Shown: positions 1 to 58,350, counted from the first letter of the stretch. The stretch: 64,000 bases of DNA from Alphaproteobacteria bacterium (GCA_045638265.1 JAZUBA010000050.1:41983-105982), one strand, 5' to 3'. A program made the numbers and translations. Notes: a model not told the origin generated them from the letters alone.

Positions 1-352
1 TATTAGATTTGAAACGAACTTTTTTCCGAATCCAATCAGCACATTCACGAGCAATGGCTTTTTGTGTCAATTCATTTCTTAATTTTACTTCAAACTCTGT
101 TCCATACAATCCTTTTTCACGGCTTGTACGAGGAATATAAAACTCTCGTTTTTCTTTTGATGTTTTTTCTTTGATAAATGTAGGAGATGTAAATATAAAT
201 CTTAATTCTGATATATTTTCTAACTGTTTCTTTAAAACTTCATAAGCATATATTGAAAAATAGGCTGCAGCAATAGATAGTTTAGAATTCTTCTTAATTT
301 CAACCTCTAAATCATCTTTTAGAATATTATTTACATTATCAAACATCTTCAT
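1..352 (-). CDS. Partial CDS (N-terminal 117 aa; continues beyond window start); possible PLD-like/helicase-associated N-terminal domain protein
   Basis: ATG at 350-352 on minus strand; translation MKMFDNVNNILKDDLEVEIKKNSKLSIAAAYFSIYAYEVLKKQLENISELRFIF...; the AAYFS..L..L...RFIF pattern resembles N-termini of PLD-like nuclease/helicase fusion proteins; no stop before the window edge. Confidence 0.4.
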   Translation of the reverse strand, partial: MKMFDNVNNILKDDLEVEIKKNSKLSIAAAYFSIYAYEVLKKQLENISELRFIFTSPTFIKEKTSKEKREFYIPRTSREKGLYGTEFEVKLRNELTQKAIARECADWIRKKVRFKSN

Positions 353-639
353 TTTTACATATCCATAGCACTAAACGGGACAAAATATGTCCATATTTTA
401 TGGAATAAAAAATATATAAATAATTATTCTGTATAGAATAATATAACATTTTGTTAAAAATACAATATTTTGTTAAAAAACAGGAGAATTCAAAGAAAAA
501 TTAATTAAAACAAACAAGGTCCTTGCAAAATACAAATATATGTTATAATATGGTAAAAATAAGGGACATTTTATTTCCTATACCCATTTATCCAGTAAAC
601 TATTGTTTTCTTAATAAATAAAAATAAAAGGATTACAAC

Positions 640-1236
640 ATGATTTACGGATATATTCGCGTCTCCACTGATAAGCAAACCACAGAAAACCAAAAATTCG
701 AAATTGAACAATTTTGTCTTCAAAACAAGATTGTTATTGACAAATGGATAACTGAAACCATCAGTGCTACAAAAGAATTAAATAAACGAAAACTTGGAAA
801 ACTGCTCAAACAAATCAAAAATGATGATATTGTAATTGCTACTGAACTGTCTCGCTTGGGTAGAAATTTGTTGCAAGTGATGAGTATTCTACACCATTGT
901 ATGAGTATCGGGTGTCAAGTTTGGACGATTAAAGACAATTATCGTCTTGGAAAGACCATAGAAAGCAAGGTCTTAGCATTTGCCTTTGGTTTGTCTGCTG
1001 AGATTGAAAGAGATCTCATTTCTCAAAGAACAACCGAAGCCTTAAAACGTCTTCAAAATGAAGGAAAAGTCTTAGGTAGACCAAAAGGCAAGAAAAACCC
1101 AAAACGCAAATTAGATGGTAAAATCTTTCAAATTAAAGAACTTTTAGAAAAGAAAGTCTCAAAGAATAAGATTGCTAAAATCCTTAAAGTGGATATTAAA
1201 ACCTTAAATAAGTTCATTTGTGAATGTTTGACTTAA
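640..1236 (+). CDS. Serine recombinase (resolvase/invertase family, Hin/Gin/TnpR-like)
   Basis: N-terminal YIRVSTDKQ catalytic serine motif, ~198 aa size, C-terminal HTH (KIAKILKVDIKTLNKF). Confidence 0.85.
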   Translation: MIYGYIRVSTDKQTTENQKFEIEQFCLQNKIVIDKWITETISATKELNKRKLGKLLKQIKNDDIVIATELSRLGRNLLQVMSILHHCMSIGCQVWTIKDNYRLGKTIESKVLAFAFGLSAEIERDLISQRTTEALKRLQNEGKVLGRPKGKKNPKRKLDGKIFQIKELLEKKVSKNKIAKILKVDIKTLNKFICECLT

Positions 1237-1244
1237 TCTACACT

Positions 1245-1322
1245 CCCAAAGCACAAATTGCCAGATTACTTGGAGTGGATAAACTGACCTTGTATAGATT
1301 CTTAAAGCATTTGGAAAGTTAA
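1245..1322 (+). pseudogene. Orphan resolvase C-terminal HTH fragment
   Basis: Frame translation YTPKAQIARLLGVDKLTLYRFLKHLES* matches the canonical resolvase C-terminal DNA-binding helix; no upstream catalytic domain in frame, and it lies immediately after the stop of the intact recombinase. Confidence 0.45.
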
Positions 1323-1374
1323 GAATAATGTTCTGATTTGTTCAAAAGTGTTTGATGGGGTTAGTTTTCTCCGA

Positions 1375-1470
1375 ACTTTTTTGATTTTTCTCCTTACTTA
1401 AAAAAGTTTTCTCCGAACTTTACTCCGAACTTTTTATAGTTTTCTGTGAACTTTTTAAAATTTTCAGGGA
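1375..1470. repeat. Iteron-like direct repeats (ttttctccgaactttt x4-5)
   Basis: Visible repeated units agttttctccgaactttttt / gttttctccgaacttt / actccgaacttttta / gttttctgtgaacttttta; a palindrome ttttgaacttttttttgttcaaa recurs at ~2000-2030. Confidence 0.6.
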
Positions 1471-2082
1471 ACCTTTTCTGGGTAGCAACATTTCAATTTT
1501 CCCCAAAGCAACCACCCACCAAAACCAGTTGCCACCCCCGAGCAGTTGGTTTTCCCCATTTATATTTGATCAGACTAATGGCCTTTGGCAGTTGGGATTA
1601 ATTGCTTTTTAGACCTAATTACTTTTCCATATAATCCATCCCATTACTTTGGGTTTAGTTATTTAATCCAATGACTATCCACACATGACTCCCATTACAT
1701 TCCTTTGCTGGTTTAATCCAAAGAAAAAAGAGGTCTAATGTCTTTATTTTGACTTATTATAATCTCTTTCTTTTTTATTTCTATTATAAGTACTATTATA
1801 GGCAACAAAAACACCCCTAAACACCAATGAATACAAGGGGTTTAGAGAAATGACCCGAACATAACAGTATCCAATTCCGAAAGTATCTTTCTCCATTACC
1901 GACAATATGCCTTTTTGCCCGAGACACAAAGATCCTCGATTTTAAATTCCTGACAATAAAAGTGTTTTTTACCCGAAATACCGAACACATAAATATTTTT
2001 GAACTTTTTTTTGTTCAAACGAAAATTTGGATATTTACCCGAATAAATAATTGTGCATTACGAGAAAATATAAGGAGTAAAA

Positions 2083-2664
2083 ATGAGTAGTAGTAAAGCA
2101 CAATTATCTATCACAAAACGAGTATTATTAGACTTTGTTAAGTTTAAAACAAACAATAACTTTAAGTTCTTCGGGGGTAATGAATACATCGCCAGTGTGT
2201 TGGATTTAACCAAGAACACTGCAAAGACTTTTGTCAACGACCTTATTCGTGAAGGATATTTATATAAGGAAACAGATAAAAAAGGCAGACGGTTGCTTTC
2301 TTTAACCGGAAAAGAATATAAACCTTTATTTGAGGATTTAACCAATTTAGATAAAAAGGCATTAAGGGAAGAAAACAATGACCTGAAACAAGATAATAAG
2401 TATTTGGAACAAGAACTGGAAACACATAAACACCATGCAAATATGTTGTTATCAGAGAAAACTGACTTAGTTATATCTAATACAGAGTTAAATATCAAAA
2501 TACAAGAACTTGAAGAAAGAATTGCCAAATTAGAAAACAGAACAACAAAGTTGGAGAATATCTTTTATAAGAATGGAATATCTAAAACACAATTAGATGA
2601 GATGATAGAAAAGAATGAGAACATAAAATCCAATACAACCCAAAACGGCATTCAACGGAAATGA
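2083..2664 (+). CDS. Winged-HTH plus coiled-coil protein (Rep-like initiator or regulator)
   Basis: N-terminal wHTH-like segment (KTFVNDLIREGYLYKETDKKGRRLLSLT) followed by heptad-rich coiled-coil; located downstream of iteron-like repeats. Confidence 0.4.
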   Translation: MSSSKAQLSITKRVLLDFVKFKTNNNFKFFGGNEYIASVLDLTKNTAKTFVNDLIREGYLYKETDKKGRRLLSLTGKEYKPLFEDLTNLDKKALREENNDLKQDNKYLEQELETHKHHANMLLSEKTDLVISNTELNIKIQELEERIAKLENRTTKLENIFYKNGISKTQLDEMIEKNENIKSNTTQNGIQRK

Positions 2665-2772
2665 TAGGGTTTTATAGGTATTGATAGGCAAGATATCTTT
2701 ATTTTTCAATGGTTTTTGTATATATCAGAGATATGTTTAAAAATTGTAACATAATTAACAAAAGGAGAAAAT

Positions 2773-4068
2773 ATGTTAGAAAATCAATTTTATGACGATT
2801 ATCAATCCCCGTTAGGATACAGAGCATTAAAGAATGGATATGATACTTATGGGGTTGATCATTCTCAATTTACAACAAGAGAAGAAGTAGAATATCAAGA
2901 CAAACGCATTAAACGAGAAGAAGAACTCATGAAACAACAACGCAATATGGGTATCACAGGCAACTATATACAATACGGTACGAACTTTTGGAATAAATCA
3001 CCCGAAAATAACTATGGTTTCGGTGGTAGTGAAGTATCCAAGAATTCATATACAAATTCGTTGGAAGAAAAACAAAATGCAATCCCACCATTAAATCAAT
3101 ATACAACAGATATGCCTCCAAATTCGGAATTAAGCAATATAATAACACAAAATCAATCTGATTGGGACAAAACATATTTACAGTGCAACAATCAATTTGT
3201 TCAAAAGAATCCACTTCAAAAAGAATACATTAATGCTTATTATTCAAATAATTTAGCCCATCCATACAAAAGTAATCAATTTAACACAAATCCAAACTCT
3301 TTGTATCAAAGTAGCAATTCTTTAGATTATTTAAAACAATCATTTGGTATAAATGATACATATAAACAAACAACATTTAATAGAAATCAACTAAATAATC
3401 TAACAGAAGAAGAATTACGTAATGAATTTGAAAAGGCTTTTCCAATTCTTCAAAGAATTGAAGGATATGTGGGGCATCCTTATTTAGATACTGCTTGTAA
3501 AGATACTTCTGGAACTGGACATTTAATGGATATGAAGAATTTGCAAAACGAAAAGTCCATTGATTTTTCAAATGAAGAAAATCGTATTGCCTATACAAAT
3601 CTTTCAAACAAAATGAAAAAAAATTTTTGTAAAATTGATCCTGATGGAAATTTAACAACAAATGTAAAAGTGCAAAGGCAAACAGAAGTTTATCCAGAGT
3701 TGGCAAGATTTGTTGTTGATGAAGCAACAGATAAAGAAGTTGCTTATAAGCATTTTAAAGAGCGTTTTAAACAATTACGAGAAGCAATGAATGCACAAAA
3801 TCCTCCAATTATTTGGAAAGACTTGAATGATGATTTGAAATATCCTTTTTGGGATGTTTTATATAATCCCGGAAGAAACACACCTGTTTGGAATTGGAAG
3901 ACAAAGAAAACCGGATGGCCAAATTTAATGGAATCCTATTCAAAAAAAGATTATGAATGGGCTAAAAATGAAGTTAAAAGGAAAGATTTAAACGCAAGAA
4001 CATCCGACCTTCAAAAGAAAATAGATGCAGGTGTTAATGCTTTAATAATCAATCAACAAAATTATTAA
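2773..4068 (+). CDS. Hypothetical N/Q/Y-rich protein
   Basis: 431-aa ORF with RBS aaaggagaaaat ATG; low-complexity N/Q-rich N-terminal half. Confidence 0.5.
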   Translation: MLENQFYDDYQSPLGYRALKNGYDTYGVDHSQFTTREEVEYQDKRIKREEELMKQQRNMGITGNYIQYGTNFWNKSPENNYGFGGSEVSKNSYTNSLEEKQNAIPPLNQYTTDMPPNSELSNIITQNQSDWDKTYLQCNNQFVQKNPLQKEYINAYYSNNLAHPYKSNQFNTNPNSLYQSSNSLDYLKQSFGINDTYKQTTFNRNQLNNLTEEELRNEFEKAFPILQRIEGYVGHPYLDTACKDTSGTGHLMDMKNLQNEKSIDFSNEENRIAYTNLSNKMKKNFCKIDPDGNLTTNVKVQRQTEVYPELARFVVDEATDKEVAYKHFKERFKQLREAMNAQNPPIIWKDLNDDLKYPFWDVLYNPGRNTPVWNWKTKKTGWPNLMESYSKKDYEWAKNEVKRKDLNARTSDLQKKIDAGVNALIINQQNY

Positions 4069-5066
4069 CTATTCTTCGTATAACGATCCTCTTCATCATT
4101 TTGATGAAGAGGATGTTTATCTATATCACGCAAATTATAGCAAAACGGAGCTAATGAAAAATAAGGTTTATGGCTTACATGCTGACCAGTTTTAAAATTA
4201 TTAATATTGTTTGTCCATAATACATTTAAATAACAAGGTCCCGTTCCCCGTGGTTCTATTTTTGTATATATTGGGTTTCCATCAACATCCCAACTTTTTA
4301 TGATCGTTTCATCTGGTAAATTTATCAAAACAATATGAGCAGAAGTTGTTAAAGAGTCTTTATCTTTCAAAGCAATACTCATTTCTTCATTTTGAAAATA
4401 TAATGAACAAAGAGGCCAATATTCTCCTTCACACATCAGATAATTCATTGCGGGTTGTCTGAAACGAAATGATGTATCCGAGAATGTTTTTTGTCTTAAT
4501 TCCTTTTCTTTTTCCCTAATAGTTTTGCGTTCAAACTTTTTATCAATTTCAATATGCATTGAACAACCCTCTTTGAGTCGTCTTAATGTTTGTGTATACC
4601 CAGTTTTATCTTTATCATATGGATTTTCCGTATGAACTTTTAATCGACAATTTGTATCATAACTAATATCTTTATATACAAGATGGGGAAGATACCACGT
4701 TTCTTGAAATACTGTTTTAAATTCTTCATCTTTCAACAATTTTATTTCAAAAGATGTTATTTCATTTAAATTGTCTGTTTGAAAAATAAAATAATAATTA
4801 TTTGTAAAAATATAACAAATAGCCTCTGTTGAAGAACAAAAATCTGTTTCGCAAACCAAATGATTTAAATTTTCCTGCTTAAATTTAAAGGATGTATCAA
4901 AGTTATAACGTTTGCTTAATTGATTATGCATATCTTGATATAAAGTATCAGCTTCTTTCTGGTCTTTAAAAACACCTATTGTAGATTTTTGTTCACAATC
5001 TCCCCAGACAGATGTATTCATTCCTAAAAAACAACTAAAAATGATACTTAATATTTTTTTTCGCAT
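4065..5066 (-). CDS. Secreted hypothetical protein with internal two-fold repeat
   Basis: Signal peptide MRKKILSIIFSCFLGMNTSVWG; internal duplication F[DS]TSF[KR]F[KR]Q...N[HY]L[VM]CE... Confidence 0.5.
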   Translation of the reverse strand: MRKKILSIIFSCFLGMNTSVWGDCEQKSTIGVFKDQKEADTLYQDMHNQLSKRYNFDTSFKFKQENLNHLVCETDFCSSTEAICYIFTNNYYFIFQTDNLNEITSFEIKLLKDEEFKTVFQETWYLPHLVYKDISYDTNCRLKVHTENPYDKDKTGYTQTLRRLKEGCSMHIEIDKKFERKTIREKEKELRQKTFSDTSFRFRQPAMNYLMCEGEYWPLCSLYFQNEEMSIALKDKDSLTTSAHIVLINLPDETIIKSWDVDGNPIYTKIEPRGTGPCYLNVLWTNNINNFKTGQHVSHKPYFSLAPFCYNLRDIDKHPLHQNDEEDRYTKNS

Positions 5067-16692: not shown

Positions 16693-17175
16693 TTAACGGG
16701 CATTTCCTTTTAATGCCATGGCAGAATTGACTTTTGGCCGTGTATAACCTTCCCTATCGGCAAAAGCAACTCTTGCCTCTTTAACACTTGCCAAATCCAT
16801 ACCTTCATATTTGGCAAAATCTTCACCATATTTCCATGTAACAGATAATAATTGTGTAGCAACCGTATATGTAATCGGATCAATATTAAAACCGATTTTA
16901 GCATCTTCACGGGCTTTATCATGTATTTTTGCTGTCAAACCTTGATTTTGAGCTTTCATTTCTGCTTGCATTAAGCAACCCCAACGATTTGTAAAATCTA
17001 AAATGTGTCCATAATCTTTTTCCAACTGTTTTTTGGCACTACCATATTCCGTTGTATGACCGCTTACATCCAATGTTTCGCCTGCAATTTTCATATCAAC
17101 CAAAGTTTTAACCTTGTTTGTTTCTATTTTTTTTCTGATATCGGCATTTGAATCAATGTTTATATTATTAGTCAT
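16693..17175 (-). CDS. Hypothetical protein
   Basis: ATG at 17175 preceded by AAGGAG RBS; no recognisable motif. Confidence 0.45.
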   Translation of the reverse strand: MTNNINIDSNADIRKKIETNKVKTLVDMKIAGETLDVSGHTTEYGSAKKQLEKDYGHILDFTNRWGCLMQAEMKAQNQGLTAKIHDKAREDAKIGFNIDPITYTVATQLLSVTWKYGEDFAKYEGMDLASVKEARVAFADREGYTRPKVNSAMALKGNAR

Positions 17176-17369
17176 AAAAAAGCTCCTTATATTGTAATGT
17201 ATGTTAATTATATACAAAAAAAAGCATACTGTCAATATATTTTTACTTTTCGTTTACATCTATCAATAATTTAATGCATTCAAAAAACAGCACCAACATT
17301 AAAAGCACAAAAAATTAAAAAAAAACATCCCTTAAAAGATAAGAGATGTTTTAATTGATAATGTATTGA

Positions 17370-40691: not shown

Positions 40692-41354
40692 ATGAATCAA
40701 ATGAAACCGGAAATGGCAAAAATTGTCAAAGATATGTATCAACTCCCGTTTAACAAAATTCAACCCTCTATTCAGGCAATCAAAAAATTATTAAAAGAAG
40801 GTCATGATATTGATGCACAAAATGAAAAAGGAGATACATTACTTCATGTGGCATTAAATTGTTTTGCATTACGAGGCGGAAATACAATTCAAGCCGGTTT
40901 GCCAAACGAACGTGAAACGGTTTTAGATGTTTTATATTTAACAACAAAGCATCATCCCAATCCGTTTATCAAGAACAATGATAATTTAACGCCATCTATG
41001 TTGGCGGCTCAAACACGATTAACAAACGAATGGCAAATACTTTCATCTTATGAGCGCTTATATCAAGCCGAAAAACAAGATTTACAGGCAAAAGAAACAG
41101 GAAAAGCTTTACTGGGAATGCTTTATTTTATGGCAAATCATTATTATGAACAATACGGGCTTTCAAACGAAAATATTCCAAACGGCATTGATAAAAACAC
41201 AATAGCGGGAGCTGAAATGATTTATGAAACAGCTCAAAAGTTGGGAGCAAATAAGAATATGCCAACAGCACAATTTATAGCAGAGCATATCAATAAAATA
41301 AAGCAAAAACATCATATTTGTAAGCATTTATTCGGAGAGAGAGAAAAATCGTAA
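40692..41354 (+). CDS. Ankyrin-repeat-like protein
   Basis: GDTLLHVALN... and NNDNLTPSMLAA repeat-like segments. Confidence 0.5.
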   Translation: MNQMKPEMAKIVKDMYQLPFNKIQPSIQAIKKLLKEGHDIDAQNEKGDTLLHVALNCFALRGGNTIQAGLPNERETVLDVLYLTTKHHPNPFIKNNDNLTPSMLAAQTRLTNEWQILSSYERLYQAEKQDLQAKETGKALLGMLYFMANHYYEQYGLSNENIPNGIDKNTIAGAEMIYETAQKLGANKNMPTAQFIAEHINKIKQKHHICKHLFGEREKS

Positions 41355-41415: not shown

Positions 41416-41492
41416 CGCGGGGTAGAGCAGTCCGGTAGCTTGTCAGGCTCATAACCTGAAGGTCGTGAGGTTCAAATCCCACCCCCGCAACC
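41416..41492 (+). tRNA. Initiator tRNA-fMet (CAT)
   Basis: CGCGGGGTAGAGCAGTCCGGTAGCTTGTCAGGCTCATAACCTGAAGGTCGTGAGGTTCAAATCCCACCCCCGCAACCA; C1xA72 mismatch; close to E. coli tRNA-fMet. Confidence 0.85.
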
Positions 41493-41496
41493 AATA

Positions 41497-41526: not shown

Positions 41527-41562
41527 TGTTGGTTATGGGGAAACAAGTGGGAATTGAGGCGA

Positions 41563-41700
41563 ACGAGCTTCAAGGTCGTGAGGTTCAAGCGAAAGCCCGT
41601 GAGACGACATTTGAAAAATGGCGGACGAACGGATGCGTGCTGAAAGGGACCCATTGTATACAATGGGAATTACCAAATCCCACCCCCCCCCACAACCAAT
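41563..41700 (+). pseudogene. Partial duplicate of tRNA-fMet 3' half plus 12 bp downstream flank, interrupted by an 89-bp insertion in the T-loop
   Basis: cttcaaggtcgtgaggttcaa | 89 bp | aatcccaccccccccacaaccaataaagaaagca repeats 41462-41504. Confidence 0.7.
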
Positions 41701-41778
41701 AAAGAAAGCATCTTTTTATTTTAATATATCTTGAAGATAAAAACCTTATTTTTCAATTTGTTATGCGTTACAGATAAA

Positions 41779-41930
41779 CGTACGTTTATGTGCAACGATT
41801 TCGCCTATAAGCCCAAAAATGGGAGAACATAAGGAAATATCACAAACAAGCCAATGTTTTCAAATCACAAAAATTAAAAAAATAAAAAAAAATACATAAA
41901 AATAAAAAAAACATTGCAAACAAACACAGC
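41779..41930. repeat. IR-bounded element B (distal IR intact, proximal IR degenerate) upstream of gene B
   Basis: cgtacgtttatgtgcaac (41779-41796) then gatttcgcctataag... near-identical to element A interior; right arm cattgcaaacaaacacagc degenerate. Confidence 0.6.
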
Positions 41931-41997
41931 TTCTGCTATAATTAAATTTAAAGAATTTAATTTATTATATAATTTAAATAACAACATGAGAAGTTAA

Positions 41998-43188
41998 ATG
42001 CAACAAGATACAAACGAACGTGGCCGCTCATTAACAGAAATGTTGGGTGTTTTAGCTGTTATTGGCGTCCTTTCAATTGGTGGAATTCAAGGTTATCGTT
42101 ATGCTATGAATAAATACCGTGCCAATAATGTATTAAATGAAATCAATATGGCATCACATCAACTATCAACTATATTGTTGACATCAATGGAAGAACAAAA
42201 GGTTATTTCATTAGGTAATCCCTATGATAACGGAACAATCAGAACAGAAAATTATCCGTTTGATTATGGGTGTGGCAATTATGATAGTTTAGAACGGGCT
42301 TGTCAACAAGCTGAGGAAGGATATTGGATGACTATCGGTGGTATTGAACAAAATCTCTGTCAAAATATACTTTCAAATTCAGAACATTTACCTTATTTTG
42401 TTGAACAACGTCTTAATGAGGAAACAGTAACAGATGATTCAATTTGCGAAGAAGATAATGAAATTATGTTGTTATTCAACTCAAATGGTTCAGGTGAATT
42501 GGCTCCTGATGTTAGTAATAAAGAACTGACGGATGTTGATTGTCCAATCAATACATCAGTTGATGGTCTGGGTGGATATGCTGTAACAGAAATGGATAAA
42601 ATATCCGGAAAAATGATGGATTGCCATTGCACAAAAATGAATACAAAATACGATGGCGATGGTATATGTGTTGCATTACCTGAAAAATGTAAATCAAACA
42701 ATGATTGTAATAAAGGTGATTATTGTGATATTACAAGTTACGGTAGCTCCAATTGTATGACAAATACAACCAGTATCACTGGAATATGCCGAAATGCAAA
42801 AGCCGATATCAGACCCGCCCCATCTAACAACTCATCTCCATTTATTGTTTCTGAACACAAAATGATGTGGTGGGGTGCTAAAAACTTCTGTCAAGCATTG
42901 AAAAAAACATTAGTTGAAGTAAATGATTTTGAATGTGCCCATTCAATCTGCCGAAGCGGATGTACCGCCAAAAGCGGGTATTGTCATGAAGATACATCAA
43001 TAAGTGTATCAACCAAAAGTTCAACGAATATTTCTCCTGTTATGCAAGAATTAAAAAAGGCATTTAGTAGTACATACGGTTGGACAAATTCCAGTTATAC
43101 CAGTTGTAATCCGTACTTTGTTTATTTTTTTGAAGGATACATCTATACAAATGGACCAAATCGTACACATCCTGCCATATGCAAGTAG
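41998..43188 (+). CDS. Family member B: TadE/prepilin-like N-terminus plus cysteine-rich domain with C-type-lectin-like module
   Basis: ERGRSLTEMLGVLAVIGVLSIGGIQGYRYAMNKY; MMWWGAKNFCQALKKTLVEV; conserved N-domain shared with A and D. Confidence 0.8.
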   Translation: MQQDTNERGRSLTEMLGVLAVIGVLSIGGIQGYRYAMNKYRANNVLNEINMASHQLSTILLTSMEEQKVISLGNPYDNGTIRTENYPFDYGCGNYDSLERACQQAEEGYWMTIGGIEQNLCQNILSNSEHLPYFVEQRLNEETVTDDSICEEDNEIMLLFNSNGSGELAPDVSNKELTDVDCPINTSVDGLGGYAVTEMDKISGKMMDCHCTKMNTKYDGDGICVALPEKCKSNNDCNKGDYCDITSYGSSNCMTNTTSITGICRNAKADIRPAPSNNSSPFIVSEHKMMWWGAKNFCQALKKTLVEVNDFECAHSICRSGCTAKSGYCHEDTSISVSTKSSTNISPVMQELKKAFSSTYGWTNSSYTSCNPYFVYFFEGYIYTNGPNRTHPAICK

Positions 43189-52152: not shown

Positions 52153-53313
52153 TTATTCACACACAGCTAATCCCAATGGACTGGTTTTATGATTGCGATA
52201 AACATATCCTGCATAATTCGCTCCAAGATCTAATACAAACGAATAACTACCATCAGAATTAGATACCCATATAGCATTTGAATCATTATCAAAACGTAAT
52301 CTTAAATCTGCTAATGTAGTAGATGTATCACATACTGCTGGTTCTGCTGCGCCTCCATCTAAACAATCAGACAAATGACATTGTGTTTTTTTTGCAGGAA
52401 GTTTAATTGCAACATCGTTAAAACTAGGAAGTTTTTTTCCAAGTGCATGACAAAAGTTCATAGCCGTGTACCAATCTGTACCTCTACCAGGCCTTGAATC
52501 TGTTTGTAATTTTCCTAAAACTTGTTGATCCGATGTCATTGCTTGACACTTTGCTGTACTATAATAGCAATAGTAACCGCTCTTGACACCACCACAATCT
52601 TTGTTTCCTGAATAATTATTTACATTGCAAGATTTACCATCCAATCTTTCAACACATTCACCATTTAAACACATGCCATTATCTTCGCCACCTTTATAAT
52701 TACATGTTTTAAATTCATAAGACGTTATATCACCTGTATCCGGATCACAACATTGCTCATTATGTCTTAAACAACAATTAGATTCTACACAACGATTTGT
52801 ACCCGAACACCATTTGTATGGTGTTTGATTACAACTTTCCTCTGTTTTATAGTCACTAGCGACATGTACTGTAGATAAATCATTATTAAAAGATAAAACA
52901 ACGGTTGTATTATCTTCACAAACAAGTGGCTCAAATCCCTTAACAATATCGCTTATCATATTTTGTAAGGCTTGACATACTTCTTTACTTACAGAGCCTA
53001 CTTTTAAGGAAAACTTTTTATCAATCTTTGTCCACTGGGCATCACCATACTCGTCATAAACAGTATTATCAAAAACAGAATCCCCAATTAAACGTTCAAA
53101 TTCACTTAACGATGGTTGGTTTTCGGACATAATTTGACTAGAAACAATATGTGCCCGTTGATTTAATTCTTCTAATATTTTATTTGCTTTATACTTATTC
53201 CAAGATAAAGTATAACCGGCAATTCCACCAAATGATAAAACGCCGATAATGGCTAAAACGCCTAATATTTCAACCATTGAACGACCAGCTTCATTTTGTA
53301 CTTTATTCATCAT
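52153..53313 (-). CDS. Family member C (divergent): TadE/prepilin-like N-terminus plus cysteine-rich domain with lectin-like module
   Basis: EAGRSMVEILGVLAIIGVLSFGGIAGY; WYTAMNFCHALGKKLPSF; start at MMNKVQ (RBS aaagggag). Confidence 0.75.
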   Translation of the reverse strand: MMNKVQNEAGRSMVEILGVLAIIGVLSFGGIAGYTLSWNKYKANKILEELNQRAHIVSSQIMSENQPSLSEFERLIGDSVFDNTVYDEYGDAQWTKIDKKFSLKVGSVSKEVCQALQNMISDIVKGFEPLVCEDNTTVVLSFNNDLSTVHVASDYKTEESCNQTPYKWCSGTNRCVESNCCLRHNEQCCDPDTGDITSYEFKTCNYKGGEDNGMCLNGECVERLDGKSCNVNNYSGNKDCGGVKSGYYCYYSTAKCQAMTSDQQVLGKLQTDSRPGRGTDWYTAMNFCHALGKKLPSFNDVAIKLPAKKTQCHLSDCLDGGAAEPAVCDTSTTLADLRLRFDNDSNAIWVSNSDGSYSFVLDLGANYAGYVYRNHKTSPLGLAVCE

Positions 53314-53373
53314 AATCTCCCTTTTTTTGTTAAAATTGTTCAATAAAATCAATTAATCTTGATTGTAACAAAA

Positions 53374-53511
53374 GGGTCGTTTATTTGCAACACTTTTTTT
53401 TATATTTTTGCAAATTTTTTTGATTTTGGCTTATTGGCGGATTATTGCGGGCTGGTGAGAAATGGTGGAATAAGGCGGTTTAGGTGCGAAATCGTTGCAA
53501 ATAAACGACCC
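53374..53511. repeat. IR-bounded element C upstream of gene C, internal segment inverted relative to A and D
   Basis: Perfect 18-bp IRs gggtcgtttatttgcaac / gttgcaaataaacgaccc; gcgaaatc lies at the gene-distal arm, whereas in A it is at the gene-proximal arm; flanking leader ttttgttacaat in the same orientation as A. Confidence 0.7.
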
Positions 53512-53806
53512 TTTATTTGCCTTCTTGTTTCATTGAAAAATAACAATTTTTTTATAGATATATGATTTATATCCCTCAACAACTCATATACCTTATCCGG
53601 CGATGCACATTCATATGCTATACCTATTTCATTCGTTATATCTTTACAAAAAATCAATACAACTGCTTCCATTGTTCTATCAGTATTTTTAATATACTAA
53701 ATAAAAAGATTAATAAAATCAAATAGAAATAAAATAAATCAAAAAAACCAAAAAAAATGCTTGCAATTTTTTTTGAAAGACTGTATAAATCATTCTGTTC
53801 TTTGAT

Positions 53807-53883
53807 GGATGTGTAGCTCAGGTGGTTAGAGTATTACGTTGACATCGTAAGGGTCGCAAGTTCGAGTCTTGCCACATCCACCA
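53807..53883 (+). tRNA. tRNA-Val (GAC)
   Basis: GGATGTGTAGCTCAGGTGGTTAGAGTATTACGTTGACATCGTAAGGGTCGCAAGTTCGAGTCTTGCCACATCCACCA. Confidence 0.85.
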
Positions 53884-53896
53884 TCTTTTGAAATAA

Positions 53897-53927
53897 TAGT
53901 TGGTTTTCGGTTTTCCGAAAACTTTTT
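53897..53927 (+). terminator. Rho-independent terminator after tRNA-Val
   Basis: ggttttcggttttccgaaaactttttttt. Confidence 0.7.
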
Positions 53928-54010
53928 TTTATACCTAAATAATCATTTTTTTATAATAAAAAATATACGCCCCAAAAGATGAGGCGTATTTATTTGCATA
54001 TTTTATAAAT

Positions 54011-56246: not shown

Positions 56247-56522
56247 AACGCAGAAACACTTTTAACAGATATTTTTTATATTGTCAAGCAAAAAAAATGA
56301 AAATTATTACTTTTTTTATTTTTAAACATAAAAAGCAATCGTTTAAAGGTTACAAAGGTATGAAGATTGTGTAAAACATAAGGCGATATATCAGACAAAC
56401 ATCAACTTGGGCTGTATATATGGTGGGATACTGCTGTACGTTAGAGATAAATTTATAGTATATATAAATCATATATCTATAAAAAAATTGTTATTTTTCA
56501 ATGAAACAAGAAGGCATATTAA

Positions 56523-56668
56523 GGTACGTTAAATTGCAACAACTTTTTTCACTTTTTTGCATTTTTTTTTGTTTTTTTCGATTTTTAATGGTTGGCGAAT
56601 TTGTCATAGTTCCCTTGATTTTGGGTGTTTTGGCACTTATATGCGAAATCGTTGCACATAAAGGTACC
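56523..56668. repeat. IR-bounded element D upstream of gene D (same relative orientation as A)
   Basis: ggtacgttaaattgcaac ... gcgaaatcgttgcacataaaggtacc; internal TTGATT-N16/17-T(T)ATAT(G) (56615-56643) reads toward gene D; leader ttacaatgg...ttattttcaa homologous to A. Confidence 0.65.
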
Positions 56669-56718
56669 TTTAATTACAATGGGGATAGTGTTATTTTCAA
56701 TAAAAGGGGACTAAAATA

Positions 56719-58350
56719 ATGAAAAATTCAAAAAACTTATGCTATAATCAACTCAAAATACAACAATTTGGTTCAAAAACAGTTCAATATCCGCTTTCAA
56801 ATGCCTGTTTTACTCGTCAAAATCGCTTAAAAACCGTATATCATTCTGCGTACGCAAATGAACACGGTCGATCAATGGTGGAAATGCTGGGTGTTTTAGC
56901 TGTTGTTGGTGTGCTTTCAATCGGTGGAATTCAAGGTTATACGTATGCCATGAATAAATATCGGACGAATCAGATTCTCAATGAACTTAATATTGCCTCA
57001 CATCAGTTGGCAACCGTATTGTTAAGAAATGAAAATGAAGAATTAGAGTTATCATTAGGTGAGCCATACGACAGCGGACGAATTGCATCAGCAGATTATG
57101 CGTTTAATTACGGATGTGGTAATGGATTGGCAGAAGAAGATTGTAGTATAGATGAAACAGGCTATTGGTTTGCACTAAATGGTGTACCTGAAACAATTTG
57201 TAAAAATATGATGACAATGGTAGACGGTATGCCTTATTTAGCTGAAAAAGAATTAAATGGGACGATTGTGGCAGATGGTACGGCTTGTGCTGATGAAAAT
57301 AACGAAATTACGTTTTTATTTAATTCGGATGGCTCGGGTGAGCTTTCAGAAAACACAGGCAATAATGACGGAACAAGCGGTGAAGAAAATGGTGGAAATG
57401 GTAAAAATGGAGATGATGAAACAGAAGAAACACCACCTGTTGACTGTGGTTCACATGGAACGTGGAATAAAAACTTGAACAAATGTGTTTGTCAAAGTGG
57501 TTGGGGCGGTAACACATGTGAAAAATCCATTGATGAAACATGTTCTGAAAATGGCTACTGGATGTCATCACGAGGATTATGTGTTTGCAAAGAGGGATTC
57601 GGTGGTTTAAATTGTGATCAAGATCCTCGTGAAGTTTGTAACAATAGAGGTACATGGGATGGCTGTGGCGGTGGTTGTTTATGTGAAAGCGGTTATGGTG
57701 GAACATACTGTCAAAACGAAATAAATGATAAATATTGTAATAATGGCGTATGGGTGAATAATACTTGGGGTACCGATGGTTATTGTAAATGTAATACAGG
57801 ATTTGGTGGTCAAAATTGCTCTATGACTCAAGAAGAAGCAAATGCACAATATTGTAATGATGGCGGTGGTATTTGGAAGAGTTCAATGGATGGTGGATTT
57901 TGCAAATGTACTAATGGTTTAGGAGGTAGGTATTGCACTGAAGAAGTTGATAAAACGTGCAGTGGAAAAGGAACATGGAAAGAGGCAACAGATACAAGAG
58001 AAGCACATTGTGATTGTTATATGAATAAAGGTTATGGTCCAGATTGTTCCTTAACGTACGCTGAAATGGAAAAAGGCGATACTTGTAGTAATAACGGTCG
58101 TTGGTATAACGGTCGTTGTGAGTGCGACGATGGATATACTGGCGATGATTGTTCCATAACATGTCAACATAGAATTGAATTTTCTGGAATTGATGGTTAT
58201 TGTACCTGTGATGCTGGTTGGGCTGGCGAAGGTTGTGATGTTTTAGAAAAAAACTATTGTATAAATGGGGTTTGGAATACGCAAGCCAAACATTGTCTTT
58301 GTGAAAACGGATGGATAGGTGAAAGTTGCGATATACCAGCTAACAACTAA
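56719..58350 (+). CDS. Family member D: TadE/prepilin-like N-terminus plus conserved N-domain plus eight EGF-like repeats
   Basis: EHGRSMVEMLGVLAVVGVLSIGGIQGYTYAMNKY; repeated CxCxxG[WFY]xGxxC units (CVCQSGWGGNTC, CVCKEGFGGLNC, CLCESGYGGTYC, CKCNTGFGGQNC, CKCTNGLGGRYC, CECDDGYTGDDC, CTCDAGWAGEGC, CLCENGWIGESC). Confidence 0.8.
   Translation: MKNSKNLCYNQLKIQQFGSKTVQYPLSNACFTRQNRLKTVYHSAYANEHGRSMVEMLGVLAVVGVLSIGGIQGYTYAMNKYRTNQILNELNIASHQLATVLLRNENEELELSLGEPYDSGRIASADYAFNYGCGNGLAEEDCSIDETGYWFALNGVPETICKNMMTMVDGMPYLAEKELNGTIVADGTACADENNEITFLFNSDGSGELSENTGNNDGTSGEENGGNGKNGDDETEETPPVDCGSHGTWNKNLNKCVCQSGWGGNTCEKSIDETCSENGYWMSSRGLCVCKEGFGGLNCDQDPREVCNNRGTWDGCGGGCLCESGYGGTYCQNEINDKYCNNGVWVNNTWGTDGYCKCNTGFGGQNCSMTQEEANAQYCNDGGGIWKSSMDGGFCKCTNGLGGRYCTEEVDKTCSGKGTWKEATDTREAHCDCYMNKGYGPDCSLTYAEMEKGDTCSNNGRWYNGRCECDDGYTGDDCSITCQHRIEFSGIDGYCTCDAGWAGEGCDVLEKNYCINGVWNTQAKHCLCENGWIGESCDIPANN

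What the first reader, a model, noticed from the sequence alone, without database searches (positions are those of the whole stretch)
53353..53540. Element C gives the clearest inversion signature (perfect 18-bp IRs, flipped interior, collinear flanks)
Element C has perfect IRs gggtcgtttatttgcaac / gttgcaaataaacgaccc. Compared with element A (gene on the same strand), the proximal IR plus leader (gttgcaaWtaaacgWcc|cttttgttacaat) is conserved and collinear. The motif adjacent to the IR interior is gatttcgc at the distal arm in C, whereas gcgaaatc sits at the proximal arm in A. The interior of C is also more GC-rich and diverged, so it may carry different regulatory content (the OFF face).
Basis: seen in the sequence. 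Interest (0 to 1): 0.7.

Follow-up and report, generated by a model that had tools for sequence, protein, structure and literature searches.

The report
Invertible promoter switch for pilin-lectin adhesin
This is a real flip-flop DNA switch: a ~130-bp segment in front of a pilus-adhesin gene of an uncultured gut alphaproteobacterium, caught in both orientations in independent samples, probably flipped by a Bacteroides-type "master invertase" encoded 52 kb away, and unusual because the promoter is built into the recombination site itself.

Summary
Element C has perfect inverted repeats, in fact 21 bp (53371-53391 / 53494-53514). Its interior aligns to paralogous elements A and D only when inverted.

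An independent metagenome contig (L082) carries the same gene, leader and proximal repeat with the interior flipped. Inversion at this locus is therefore shown, not just inferred.

Each repeat sits in a hix-like 26-bp site (12-2-12) whose core resembles published Bacteroides Mpi sites. The window's only recombinase (640-1236) scores above cutoff as a "master DNA invertase Mpi family" serine recombinase.

All four pilin-like genes in the window have such an element. The element C product models as a type IV pilin fold plus a C-type-lectin-like domain.

The core promoter (TTGCAA-17-TGnTACAAT) spans the proximal crossover site. The -10 lies outside the invertible segment and the -35 in its inner arm. 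In at least 16 loci from related MAGs, inversion swaps a real -35 plus phased A-tracts for a non-promoter sequence. In this species both arms carry the -35, so only the A-tract module changes.

Element C in the window is in the predicted ON state, not the "OFF face". I class it as a new variant of a known kind.

The parts
53364..53389 (.). Element C, gene-proximal 26-bp recombination site. On the gene (-) strand it reads TGCAAATAAACG|AC|CCTTTTGTTACA. The predicted crossover dinucleotide is at 53376-53377.
   Evidence: Half-site PWM scan: seven full sites in the window, all in elements A-D, with 0-1 in shuffles. Anatomy.
53496..53521 (.). Element C, distal 26-bp recombination site, TGCAAATAAACG|AC|CCTTTATTTGCC on the + strand. 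The central dinucleotide at 53508-53509 is the reverse complement of the proximal one when both are read on the gene strand (GT vs AC).
   Evidence: The perfect 21-bp inverted-repeat arms are 53371-53391 and 53494-53514.
53392..53493 (.). Invertible interior of element C (102 bp). The crossover centres are 132 bp apart.
   Evidence: Found flipped in independent contig L082. Same orientation as the window in L081. Inverted homology to A and D.
53394..53428 (-). Phased A-tract module, UP-element-like. On the gene strand it reads CAAAATCAAAAAAATTTGCAAAAATATAAAAAAAAGTG and lies immediately upstream of the -35 in the window's orientation.
   Evidence: The same module is conserved next to the -35-bearing arm in SIG53, L083 and L078 loci. 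tRNA promoters in the window also have an A-tract just 5' of the -35.
53486..53493 (+). GCGAAATC motif at the other end of the interior. It is distal in the window and proximal in L082, A and D.
53362..53390 (-). Predicted sigma-70-type core promoter, TTGCAA-17 bp-TG-n-TACAAT. The -35 lies in the inner half-site (inside the invertible segment) and the -10 at the end of the outer half-site (outside it).
   Evidence: It is the only promoter-like hit on the gene strand in 53250-53900. The same arrangement occurs at A, B and D. The pattern TTGCA[AC]-N16-18-TAnAAT has only 6 hits on both strands of the window, 4 of them at these elements.
52153..53313 (-). Controlled gene, 386 aa: a prepilin-like N-terminus (G|RSMVEILGVLAIIGVLS), a type IV pilin fold and a C-terminal C-type-lectin-like domain.
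640..1236 (+). Candidate invertase: a 198-aa small serine recombinase of the Mpi (master DNA invertase) family, with the catalytic Ser in GYIRVST.
   Evidence: Pfam Resolvase 2e-32. NCBIfam NF009949 302 bits against a cutoff of 272, covering positions 1-194 of 203. The best solved relative is Gin DNA-invertase, 1e-12. It is the only recombinase motif hit in the six-frame ORFs.
33506..33670 (.). Element A (sites 33506-33531 and 33645-33670, central dinucleotide TA), with GCGAAATC proximal. It lies upstream of pilin-like gene 31658-33469 (-).
   Evidence: Same state in independent sample L086.
41769..41942 (.). Element B: an intact distal site at 41769-41794 and a degenerate proximal site, so probably locked. 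The A-tract is proximal, with TTGCAA-17-TATAAT at 41914-41942. It lies upstream of pilin-like gene 41998-43188 (+).
   Evidence: Orthologous loci L087 and L088 also have a fixed A-tract + TTGCAA-17-TATAAT.
56513..56678 (.). Element D (sites 56513-56538 and 56653-56678, central dinucleotide TA), with GCGAAATC proximal. It lies upstream of the pilin-like / teneurin-EGF-repeat gene 56719-58350 (+) and shares its distal flank with C.
   Evidence: Same state in L081.

Best explanation
Element C is a phase-variation switch (inverton). Shown: a ~132-bp segment bounded by two inverted 26-bp hix-like sites (12-bp half-site, 2-bp crossover, 12-bp half-site) exists in both orientations in natural populations.

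Inferred: the flip is catalysed by the Mpi-family serine invertase encoded at 640-1236. This enzyme would act in trans on at least three invertible elements in this window (A, C, D). B is a locked relic.

Inferred: the switch sets transcription of a type IV pilin / C-type-lectin-like adhesin gene through a promoter built into the proximal recombination site. The -10 (TGnTACAAT) is fixed in the outer half-site and flank. The -35 (TTGCAA) lies in the inner half-site. The invertible interior carries phased A-tracts (UP-element-like, curved DNA) at one end only.

With the A-tract end next to the -35, as in the window, the promoter is complete and the gene is ON or high. With the GCGAAATC end next to it, as in L082 and in elements A and D, the gene is OFF or low. 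In related species the second state also removes the -35. In this species both arms carry TTGCAA, so only the upstream module differs.
For: Inversion at the locus:
- L082 nt 35-4292 match the window's minus strand (53391-49148) at 94.7%.
- L082 nt 2-55 match the window's plus strand (53461-53514) at 100%.
- L081 has the window's orientation.
- This junction is longer than the 21-bp repeat, so it needs real molecules.

Paralogue comparison:
- Interiors align only in the predicted relative orientations.

Site anatomy:
- There are exactly seven 26-bp sites, all in the four elements.
- Central dinucleotides are reverse-complementary between the two sites of C (GT/AC).
- The core AAACGTACGT / GTACGTTTAA of A, B and D is 9/10 identical to the published Mpi-site consensus ARACGTTCGTN and to GTTCGTTTAA (PMC8375218).

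Recombinase:
- It is an above-cutoff, full-length NF009949 Mpi family hit.
- It is at least 70% identical to proteins named 'master DNA invertase Mpi family' in many Alphaproteobacteria MAGs.

Promoter:
- TTGCAA-17-TGnTACAAT is the only gene-strand hit in the region and recurs at all four elements.
- In 16 loci from other MAGs the observed state has GGGAAA, ATTCCA or similar at the -35 position. In-silico inversion creates TTGCA[AT]/TTGACA-17-TAnAnT preceded by 6-8 A in 12 nt.
- L054 and L034 are already in that state.
- tRNA promoters of this genome have the same A-tract + TTGCAA/TTGACA layout.

Linkage:
- All 4 of 4 pilin-like genes in the window have an element.
Against: - No expression data exist, so the ON/OFF assignment rests on sequence logic and on homology to related species.
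- In this species the core promoter (-35, 17-bp spacer, extended -10) is intact in both states. The OFF state may therefore be only a reduced level, or the A-tracts may mainly serve to bend the very short 132-140-bp segment for synapsis rather than to act as an UP element.
- The link between recombinase and sites is not tested. The gene lies 52 kb away, in a lower-GC region with iteron-like repeats, and the rest of the genome was not seen.
- C's core (AAACGACCCT) matches the published Mpi consensus less well, about 7/10.
- Only C has been caught in both states. A and D had the same state in the two assemblies available for each.
Confidence: 0.75

Rival explanations
1. The switch inverts as described, but the regulatory polarity or mechanism differs. 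Either the GCGAAATC-proximal state is the expressing one through an internal promoter, or in this species inversion has little effect on transcription because the -35/-10 core persists, and the A-tracts only provide the curvature needed to synapse sites about 135 bp apart.
For: TTGCAA-17-TACAAT is present in both states in A, C and L081. The segments are only 132-140 bp between crossover centres, shorter than the DNA persistence length (established knowledge), so intrinsic bends would help. Element A's interior has a possible TTGCAA-16-TGnGATATT reading toward the gene (read from the sequence).
Against: The internal promoter candidate is not conserved in C or D. In related MAGs the A-tract end always travels with the -35-bearing arm and the other end lacks a -35. 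The A-tracts sit at one end of the interior, directly abutting the -35, as at the tRNA promoters, and not at the centre of the loop. The locked element B and its orthologues keep the A-tract + -35 + -10 arrangement.
Confidence: 0.18
2. A tyrosine recombinase encoded elsewhere in the genome, not the Mpi-like serine invertase, flips the element. The sites would then be read as ~9-12-bp arms around a 6-bp overlap (CGTACG / CGACCC).
For: The sites can formally be written as arms plus a 6-bp spacer. Most of the genome is outside the window. Many promoter invertons in other bacteria use tyrosine recombinases (PMC4747536, PMC6083910).
Against: No tyrosine-recombinase motif was found in the window's six-frame ORFs (regex only). 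The window does encode a full-length Mpi-family invertase. The site cores match published Mpi sites 9/10. One relative, L078, has AAAAAACCAAGGTTTTTTT. From my own memory this resembles the hix/gix core, and I did not test it here.
Confidence: 0.08
3. There is no inversion. A-D are static paralogous promoter regions that share palindromic operator-like repeats, and L082's junction is an assembly chimera.
For: The repeats are imperfect palindromes that could bind a dimeric regulator. L082 ends 34 nt inside the element.
Against: L082's flipped junction is a 54-nt exact match spanning the interior, the whole 21-bp repeat and the flank. That cannot arise from a repeat-mediated join of k-mers longer than the repeat. 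Paralogues within one genome occur in both states with reciprocal junctions exactly as predicted by crossover at the central dinucleotide (SIG53 L054/L034 against 13 others). An invertase gene is present.
Confidence: 0.03

Closest known systems
Bacteroides fragilis / B. intestinalis Mpi-controlled invertible promoters (capsular polysaccharide loci)
   Same: Both have a small serine recombinase of the same NCBIfam equivalog family. One unlinked 'master' invertase faces multiple dispersed short invertons upstream of surface-structure genes in a gut bacterium. The inverted-repeat core is nearly identical: ARACGTTCGTN / GTTCGTTTAA against AAACGTACGT / GTACGTTTAA.
   Different: The host is an alphaproteobacterium with sigma-70-type -35/-10 promoters, not the Bacteroides -33/-7 type. 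The targets are pilin-lectin adhesin genes, not polysaccharide operons. The invertible segment is about 100 bp between repeats, against 168-193 bp. The -10 lies outside the invertible DNA and the core promoter coincides with the crossover site. In Bacteroides the promoter lies inside the segment, with the start mapped in the proximal repeat (PMC8375218).
Hin/hix (Salmonella flagellar phase variation) and the Gin/Cin/Pin DNA invertases
   Same: They belong to the same serine invertase superfamily, and Gin is the best solved relative. From my own knowledge, their sites are also 26 bp with two 12-bp imperfect inverted half-sites around a 2-bp crossover, and inversion moves promoter function relative to a fixed gene.
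   Different: From my own knowledge, Hin is encoded inside its ~1-kb invertible segment, needs a Fis-bound enhancer, and carries the complete promoter inside the segment. Here the recombinase is distant, the segment is about 130 bp, no enhancer has been identified, and the promoter is split across the site.
E. coli fimS (FimB/FimE) and other pilus/fimbrial promoter invertons
   Same: A short invertible element (314 bp in fimS, from my own knowledge) sits directly upstream of a pilin gene and gives ON/OFF piliation.
   Different: fimS uses tyrosine recombinases encoded next to the switch, has 9-bp inverted repeats and needs IHF/Lrp. The whole promoter is inside the element.

Membership tests
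Mpi-type (master serine invertase) invertons | A serine recombinase of the Mpi family is encoded in the genome | tested here: met
   Window 640-1236: NF009949 at 302 bits against a cutoff of 272, covering positions 1-194 of 203. Pfam Resolvase 2e-32. GYIRVST catalytic motif.
Mpi-type (master serine invertase) invertons | Inverted repeats contain the Mpi site consensus (ARACGTTCGTN; GTTCGTTTAA in B. intestinalis) | tested here: inconclusive
   A, B and D have AAACGTACGT / GTACGTTTAA, 9/10 identical. C has AAACGACCCT, about 7/10, with a different central dinucleotide. The sites are similar but not identical, and specificity was not tested.
Mpi-type (master serine invertase) invertons | The segment between the repeats actually inverts | tested here: met
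   L082 against the window and L081 at the same locus. Reciprocal states occur among SIG53 paralogues.
Mpi-type (master serine invertase) invertons | One recombinase acts in trans on several dispersed elements | not testable with these tools
   Four elements at 33.5, 41.8, 53.4 and 56.6 kb share half-site consensus TGCAAWTAAASG, and a single recombinase gene lies at 0.6 kb. Dependence would need genetics.
Mpi-type (master serine invertase) invertons | A complete promoter is carried inside the invertible segment | tested here: not met
   The best and only conserved promoter has its -10 outside the segment and its -35 in the inner arm. No conserved internal promoter was found in either orientation.
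Hin/Gin-type DNA invertase systems | 26-bp sites of two 12-bp inverted half-sites around a 2-bp crossover, reverse-complementary between the two sites | tested here: met
   The 12-2-12 model fits all seven sites. C has GT against AC. The junctions of the two SIG53 states are exactly those predicted by exchange at the central dinucleotide. The cleavage position itself was not tested.
Hin/Gin-type DNA invertase systems | The recombinase gene lies within or adjacent to the invertible segment, with a Fis-dependent enhancer | tested here: not met
   The recombinase is 52 kb away and the interior is about 100 bp with no ORF. An enhancer was not searched for specifically.
Type IV pilins (product of the controlled gene) | Prepilin leader ending in Gly, Glu at +5, a hydrophobic N-terminal helix and a pilin alpha/beta fold | tested here: met

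The most novel reading that the evidence does not exclude
The recombination site is itself the core promoter: the -35 sits in the inner half-site, the 2-bp crossover in the spacer, and the -10 at the end of the outer half-site. Inversion therefore assembles or dismantles a promoter at the crossover point. In this particular species both inner arms carry TTGCAA, so the flip exchanges only a phased A-tract, UP-element-like module. That would be a natural 'UP-element inverton' giving high/low rather than on/off control of a repertoire of pilin-lectin and pilin-EGF adhesins. It would be run by an Mpi-family invertase outside the Bacteroidota.
Probability: 0.4. Interest if true: 0.7.

Novelty: new variant of a known kind. 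Interest (0 to 1): 0.55.

Why it matters
Invertible promoters driven by a master serine invertase are a hallmark of gut Bacteroides. Here the same enzyme family and near-identical crossover cores occur in uncultured, AT-rich gut and rumen Alphaproteobacteria. Each genome there carries many switches in front of type IV pilin genes fused to eukaryote-like binding domains (C-type lectin, teneurin-type EGF).

This suggests convergent use, or transfer, of the Mpi strategy for surface variation in a poorly known gut lineage.

It also offers a compact promoter-in-the-crossover-site design of about 130 bp. In this design the fixed -10 and the mobile -35/UP module can be separated experimentally, which is useful for understanding UP-element contribution and for synthetic recombinase switches.

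Finally, it explains why assemblies of these organisms break at these loci.

Tried and rejected
- Exact-protein look-ups for the window's C product, Fic, OEP, P0122 and P0123 found nothing. The window's own strain is not in that index. No L081 or L082 protein is identical to a window protein.
- A JGI metagenome scan with the C-specific proximal repeat + leader found 0 hits.
- Multi-contig family members P0018 and P0063 were collapsed by the tool. L084 and L085 are identical and belong to a different leader type. No extra polymorphism was gained.
- A and D showed no orientation polymorphism in the one extra assembly available for each.
- The lone repeat-like 17-mer at 52397-52413 lies in conserved coding sequence, has no partner and no full 26-bp site, so I rejected it as part of the system.
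- A tyrosine-recombinase motif search of the six-frame ORFs found nothing.
- The element is not a known RNA: Rfam gave only the two tRNAs and sub-threshold noise.
- The repeat is not a terminator. The hairpin has a loop of more than 100 nt, no U-tail and z = -2.4, and the scan found no terminator-like site.
- Pfam on 10-20 kb found sugar and housekeeping genes, not pilus machinery.
- The original Mpi paper (PMC193581) is not held. The consensus was taken from PMC8375218 instead.
- Literature searches for inversion + UP element, for 'split promoter' and for invertons in gut Alphaproteobacteria found no description of this design.

Full report
**1. Observation**

The perfect inverted repeat actually runs 21 bp, 53371-53391 / 53494-53514. 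About 0.001 perfect 18-bp inverted pairs within 250 bp are expected in 64 kb of this composition.

The arm motif GTTGCAAWTAAACGWMC occurs 10 times with up to 2 mismatches, against 0.19 expected. The copies define four elements:

| Element | Position | Downstream gene |
|---|---|---|
| A | ~33.5 kb | 31658-33469 (-) |
| B | ~41.8 kb | 41998-43188 (+) |
| C | ~53.4 kb | 52153-53313 (-) |
| D | ~56.6 kb | 56719-58350 (+) |

One further copy lies alone inside the C gene. It is in conserved coding sequence with no partner, so I treat it as incidental.

Read toward the gene, A and D have GCGAAATC next to the proximal arm and a T-rich end distal. B and C have the opposite arrangement. Formal alignment of the interiors gave these scores:

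| Pair | Inverted | Same orientation | Best of 300 shuffles (better of both orientations) |
|---|---|---|---|
| C vs A | 47 | 5 | 43 |
| C vs D | 47 | 8 | 41 |
| C vs B | 6 | 47 | 38 |
| A vs D | 8 | 87 | 55 |

A against B is 100/118 identical when inverted. C and D also share about 45 bp of distal flank. C's interior is more GC-rich, 0.37 against 0.23-0.30. The difference lies in the non-A-tract half.

**2. Direct evidence for inversion at element C**

The closest relative of the C gene product (P0001, 98% identity) lies on two contigs from two different ENA samples.

- **L081** is syntenic across D, the Fic gene, C and the OEP gene. It has C in the window's orientation.
- **L082** starts 112 bp upstream of the gene. 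It has the identical proximal repeat, leader and gene, but the sequence entering the repeat is ...GGTGGAATAAGGCGGTTTAGGTGCGAAATC. In the window that sequence abuts the distal arm on the other strand.

BLAST states this cleanly. L082 nt 35-4292 match window 53391-49148 on the minus strand at 94.7%. L082 nt 2-55 match window 53461-53514 on the plus strand at 100%. The 54-nt junction is longer than the 21-bp repeat, so it must come from real molecules. The contig ends inside the element, as expected if the population is mixed.

A and D were in the same state in the one additional assembly available for each (L086; L081).

**3. Anatomy of the sites**

Each arm is part of an imperfectly palindromic 26-bp site that fits a 12-2-12 layout. 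On the gene strand, C reads:

- distal: GGCAAATAAAGG|GT|CGTTTATTTGCA
- proximal: TGCAAATAAACG|AC|CCTTTTGTTACA

A, B and D have TA at the centre. A PWM built from the 14 half-sites (consensus TGCAAWTAAASG) finds exactly seven full sites in the window, all in the four elements. Shuffles give 0-1. This scan is partly circular, but it shows there are no further sites.

B has only its distal site. Its proximal site is degenerate with a non-matching centre, so B is probably locked. Its orthologues L087 and L088 also carry a fixed A-tract + TTGCAA-17-TATAAT.

The crossover centres are 132 bp (C), 139 bp (A) and 140 bp (D) apart.

The related MAG SIG53 has both states among paralogues. Their junctions are exactly those predicted by exchange at the central dinucleotide:

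- state 1: TGTAAAAAAAGG|GA|CGTATAAATGCA ... GGGAAAAAAAGG|TC|CCTTTTATTACA
- state 2: ...AAAAAGG|GA|CCTTTTTTTCCC ... TGCATTTATACG|TC|CCTTTTATTACA

**4. The recombinase**

A regex screen of all six-frame ORFs found one recombinase signature, GYIRVS, in ORF 640-1236.

- Pfam: Resolvase, 2e-32.
- NCBIfam NF009949, "master DNA invertase Mpi family serine-type recombinase": 302 bits against a curated cutoff of 272, covering positions 1-194 of 203.
- Best solved relative: Gin DNA invertase.
- Homologues at 70% identity or more are abundant in Alphaproteobacteria MAGs, where NCBI already gives them that name.

The published Mpi site consensus is ARACGTTCGTN in B. fragilis and GTTCGTTTAA in B. intestinalis (PMC8375218). 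Elements A, B and D have AAACGTACGT / GTACGTTTAA, 9/10 identical. C has AAACGACCCT.

That this enzyme flips these elements is an inference. The gene lies 52 kb from C and the rest of the genome was not seen.

**5. Organism and controlled genes**

Relatives of the N-terminal region occur almost only in uncultured Alphaproteobacteria MAGs from animal and human gut and rumen, with many paralogues per genome. The window is about 33% GC.

All four downstream proteins share a prepilin-like N-terminus, G|RSM(V/T)E(M/I)LGVLAV..., followed by variable Cys-rich regions. They are the only four such genes in the window, and each has an element.

Foldseek alone was not significant. D carries teneurin-type EGF repeats.

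**6. How the switch probably works**

The only sigma-70-like promoter on the gene strand near C is TTGCAA-17-TGnTACAAT at 53390-53362. The same arrangement sits at A, B and D. These account for 4 of the 6 hits to TTGCA[AC]-N16-18-TAnAAT on both strands of the window.

It coincides with the proximal recombination site. The -35 overlaps the inner half-site (TGCAA). The -10 overlaps the end of the outer half-site (TTACA|AT). The 17-bp spacer follows from the 26-bp site length. The -10 is therefore fixed, and the -35 and everything upstream travel with the invertible segment.

I inverted the loci from other MAGs in silico.

- In 16 loci (SIG53, RGIG7750, the MAG of L078, and L083) the observed state has GGGAAA, TAGGGA, ATTCCA or TTCAAA at the -35 position.
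- In those loci the flipped state gives TTGCA[AT] or TTGACA, 17 bp, then TAnAnT, preceded by 6-8 A in the 12 nt upstream.
- L054 and L034 are already in that state.
- A different MAG (L002-L004) has 38-bp palindromic repeats and a conventional internal promoter in both orientations among paralogues.

The family trait is thus a split promoter. The -35 plus a phased A-tract module (...AAAAATGCAAAAA-GTG-AAAAAAAGTG|TTGCAA) is delivered to a fixed -10.

In the window's species both inner arms read TTGCAA, TTGCAC or TTGCAT. The core promoter therefore survives in both states, and only the upstream 12 nt change: 8 A against 3-4 A.

tRNA promoters in the window have the same A-tract + TTGCAA/TTGACA layout, for example CCAAAAAAAATGC|TTGCAA-17-TATAAA before tRNA-Val. 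This supports an UP-element-like role. On this reading C (window, L081) and B are ON. A, D and L082's C are OFF or low.

This polarity and the size of the effect are inferred, not shown. The A-tracts might instead, or also, supply the bend needed to synapse sites only about 135 bp apart.

**7. Exclusions**

- No Rfam family overlaps the element.
- The repeat hairpin has a loop of more than 100 nt, no U-tail and z = -2.4, and no terminator-like site was found.
- No tyrosine-recombinase motif is present in the window.
- Neighbouring gene clusters are ordinary chromosomal genes.

**8. Comparison and novelty**

The system works like, and largely qualifies as, an Mpi-type master-invertase inverton system. 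It also shares the hix-like site geometry of Hin/Gin systems. It differs in several respects:

- the host lineage
- the target genes, which are pilin-lectin and pilin-EGF adhesins
- the very short segment
- the promoter, which is split across the crossover site, with the -10 outside

In this species the flip exchanges only the upstream A-tract module.

The held literature contains no description of inversion combined with UP elements, of natural split-promoter invertons, or of invertons in these gut Alphaproteobacteria beyond bulk surveys. NCBI's automatic naming of the recombinase shows the enzyme family is already recognised there.

I class the finding as a new variant of a known kind, with interest about 0.55.

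Noticed in passing
window 52431-52437 (minus-strand gene 52153-53313); L081 ~5866; L082 ~978: A homopolymer in the C gene is A7 in the window and A8 in both independent contigs L081 and L082. The extra base frameshifts the gene into 296 + 98 aa pieces. This could be slipped-strand phase variation layered on the inverton, or a lineage pseudogene.
   Followed up: partly
window 1236-1325 and 1361-1477: Directly after the recombinase stop codon there is a second HTH-like coding remnant (...KAQIARLLGVDKLTLYRFLKHLES). It is followed by 4-5 direct ~21-nt repeats (GTTTTCTCCGAACTTTTT) that look like iterons. The first ~8 kb of the window is also lower in GC, 0.28-0.31.
   Followed up: no
homologues of window 640-1236: Many contigs carrying near-identical Mpi-family genes are only 700-1000 bp long for a 597-bp gene. 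This suggests assembly breaks (repeats or variable DNA) on both sides of the recombinase gene in many samples.
   Followed up: no
window 41530-41700: Upstream of element B there are degenerate partial duplicates of the 3' end of tRNA-Met (41416-41493) and of its downstream sequence (ggtcgtgaggttcaag ... caaccaataaagaaagca). These look like an integration scar. In L087 and L088 this position instead holds another pilin-like gene.
   Followed up: partly
L086 2300-2480 vs window 33506-33670 and 56513-56678: In another sample, element A has an identical interior but inner arms (CGTTAAATTGCAAC / GTTGCACATAAAGG) identical to those of the window's element D. This suggests arm exchange or gene conversion between elements.
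   Followed up: no
L084/L085 1380-1480; L032 upstream region: Some family members lack the inverton. They have instead a GC-rich leader ending in a terminator-like hairpin (CATCCGCCCACTTTATTAGTGGGTTTTTTT), which suggests a different, attenuation-type control of other pilin-like genes.
   Followed up: no
L002-L004 (MAG JAZLAQ01): A related MAG uses 38-bp perfectly palindromic repeats (TATATTAAATCTAGACG-GT/AC-CGTCTAGATTTAATATA) with a conventional internal TTGACT-17-TAAGTT promoter. Paralogues occur in both orientations.
   Followed up: partly
loci L005, L012, L019, L029, L056, L058, L062 and others: Many MAG contigs begin or end within tens of bases of the pilin-like N-terminal coding region or the switch. 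These loci are systematic assembly breakpoints, caused by the repeat family and/or orientation heterogeneity.
   Followed up: no
window 33825-34907, 40692-41354, 56719-58350, 16693-17235: Eukaryote-like or unusual genes lie around the switches: a serpin, an ankyrin-repeat protein, and teneurin-type EGF repeats on a pilin-like protein. One ORF has a Pfam hit to the Thoeris inhibitor Tad4, 1e-8.
   Followed up: no
window 53845-54009 (-): A sub-threshold Rfam match to the antisense RNA family HPnc0260 (42 bits against a gathering score of 59, E 0.016) overlaps the region between tRNA-Val and the Fic gene. It is probably noise.
   Followed up: no
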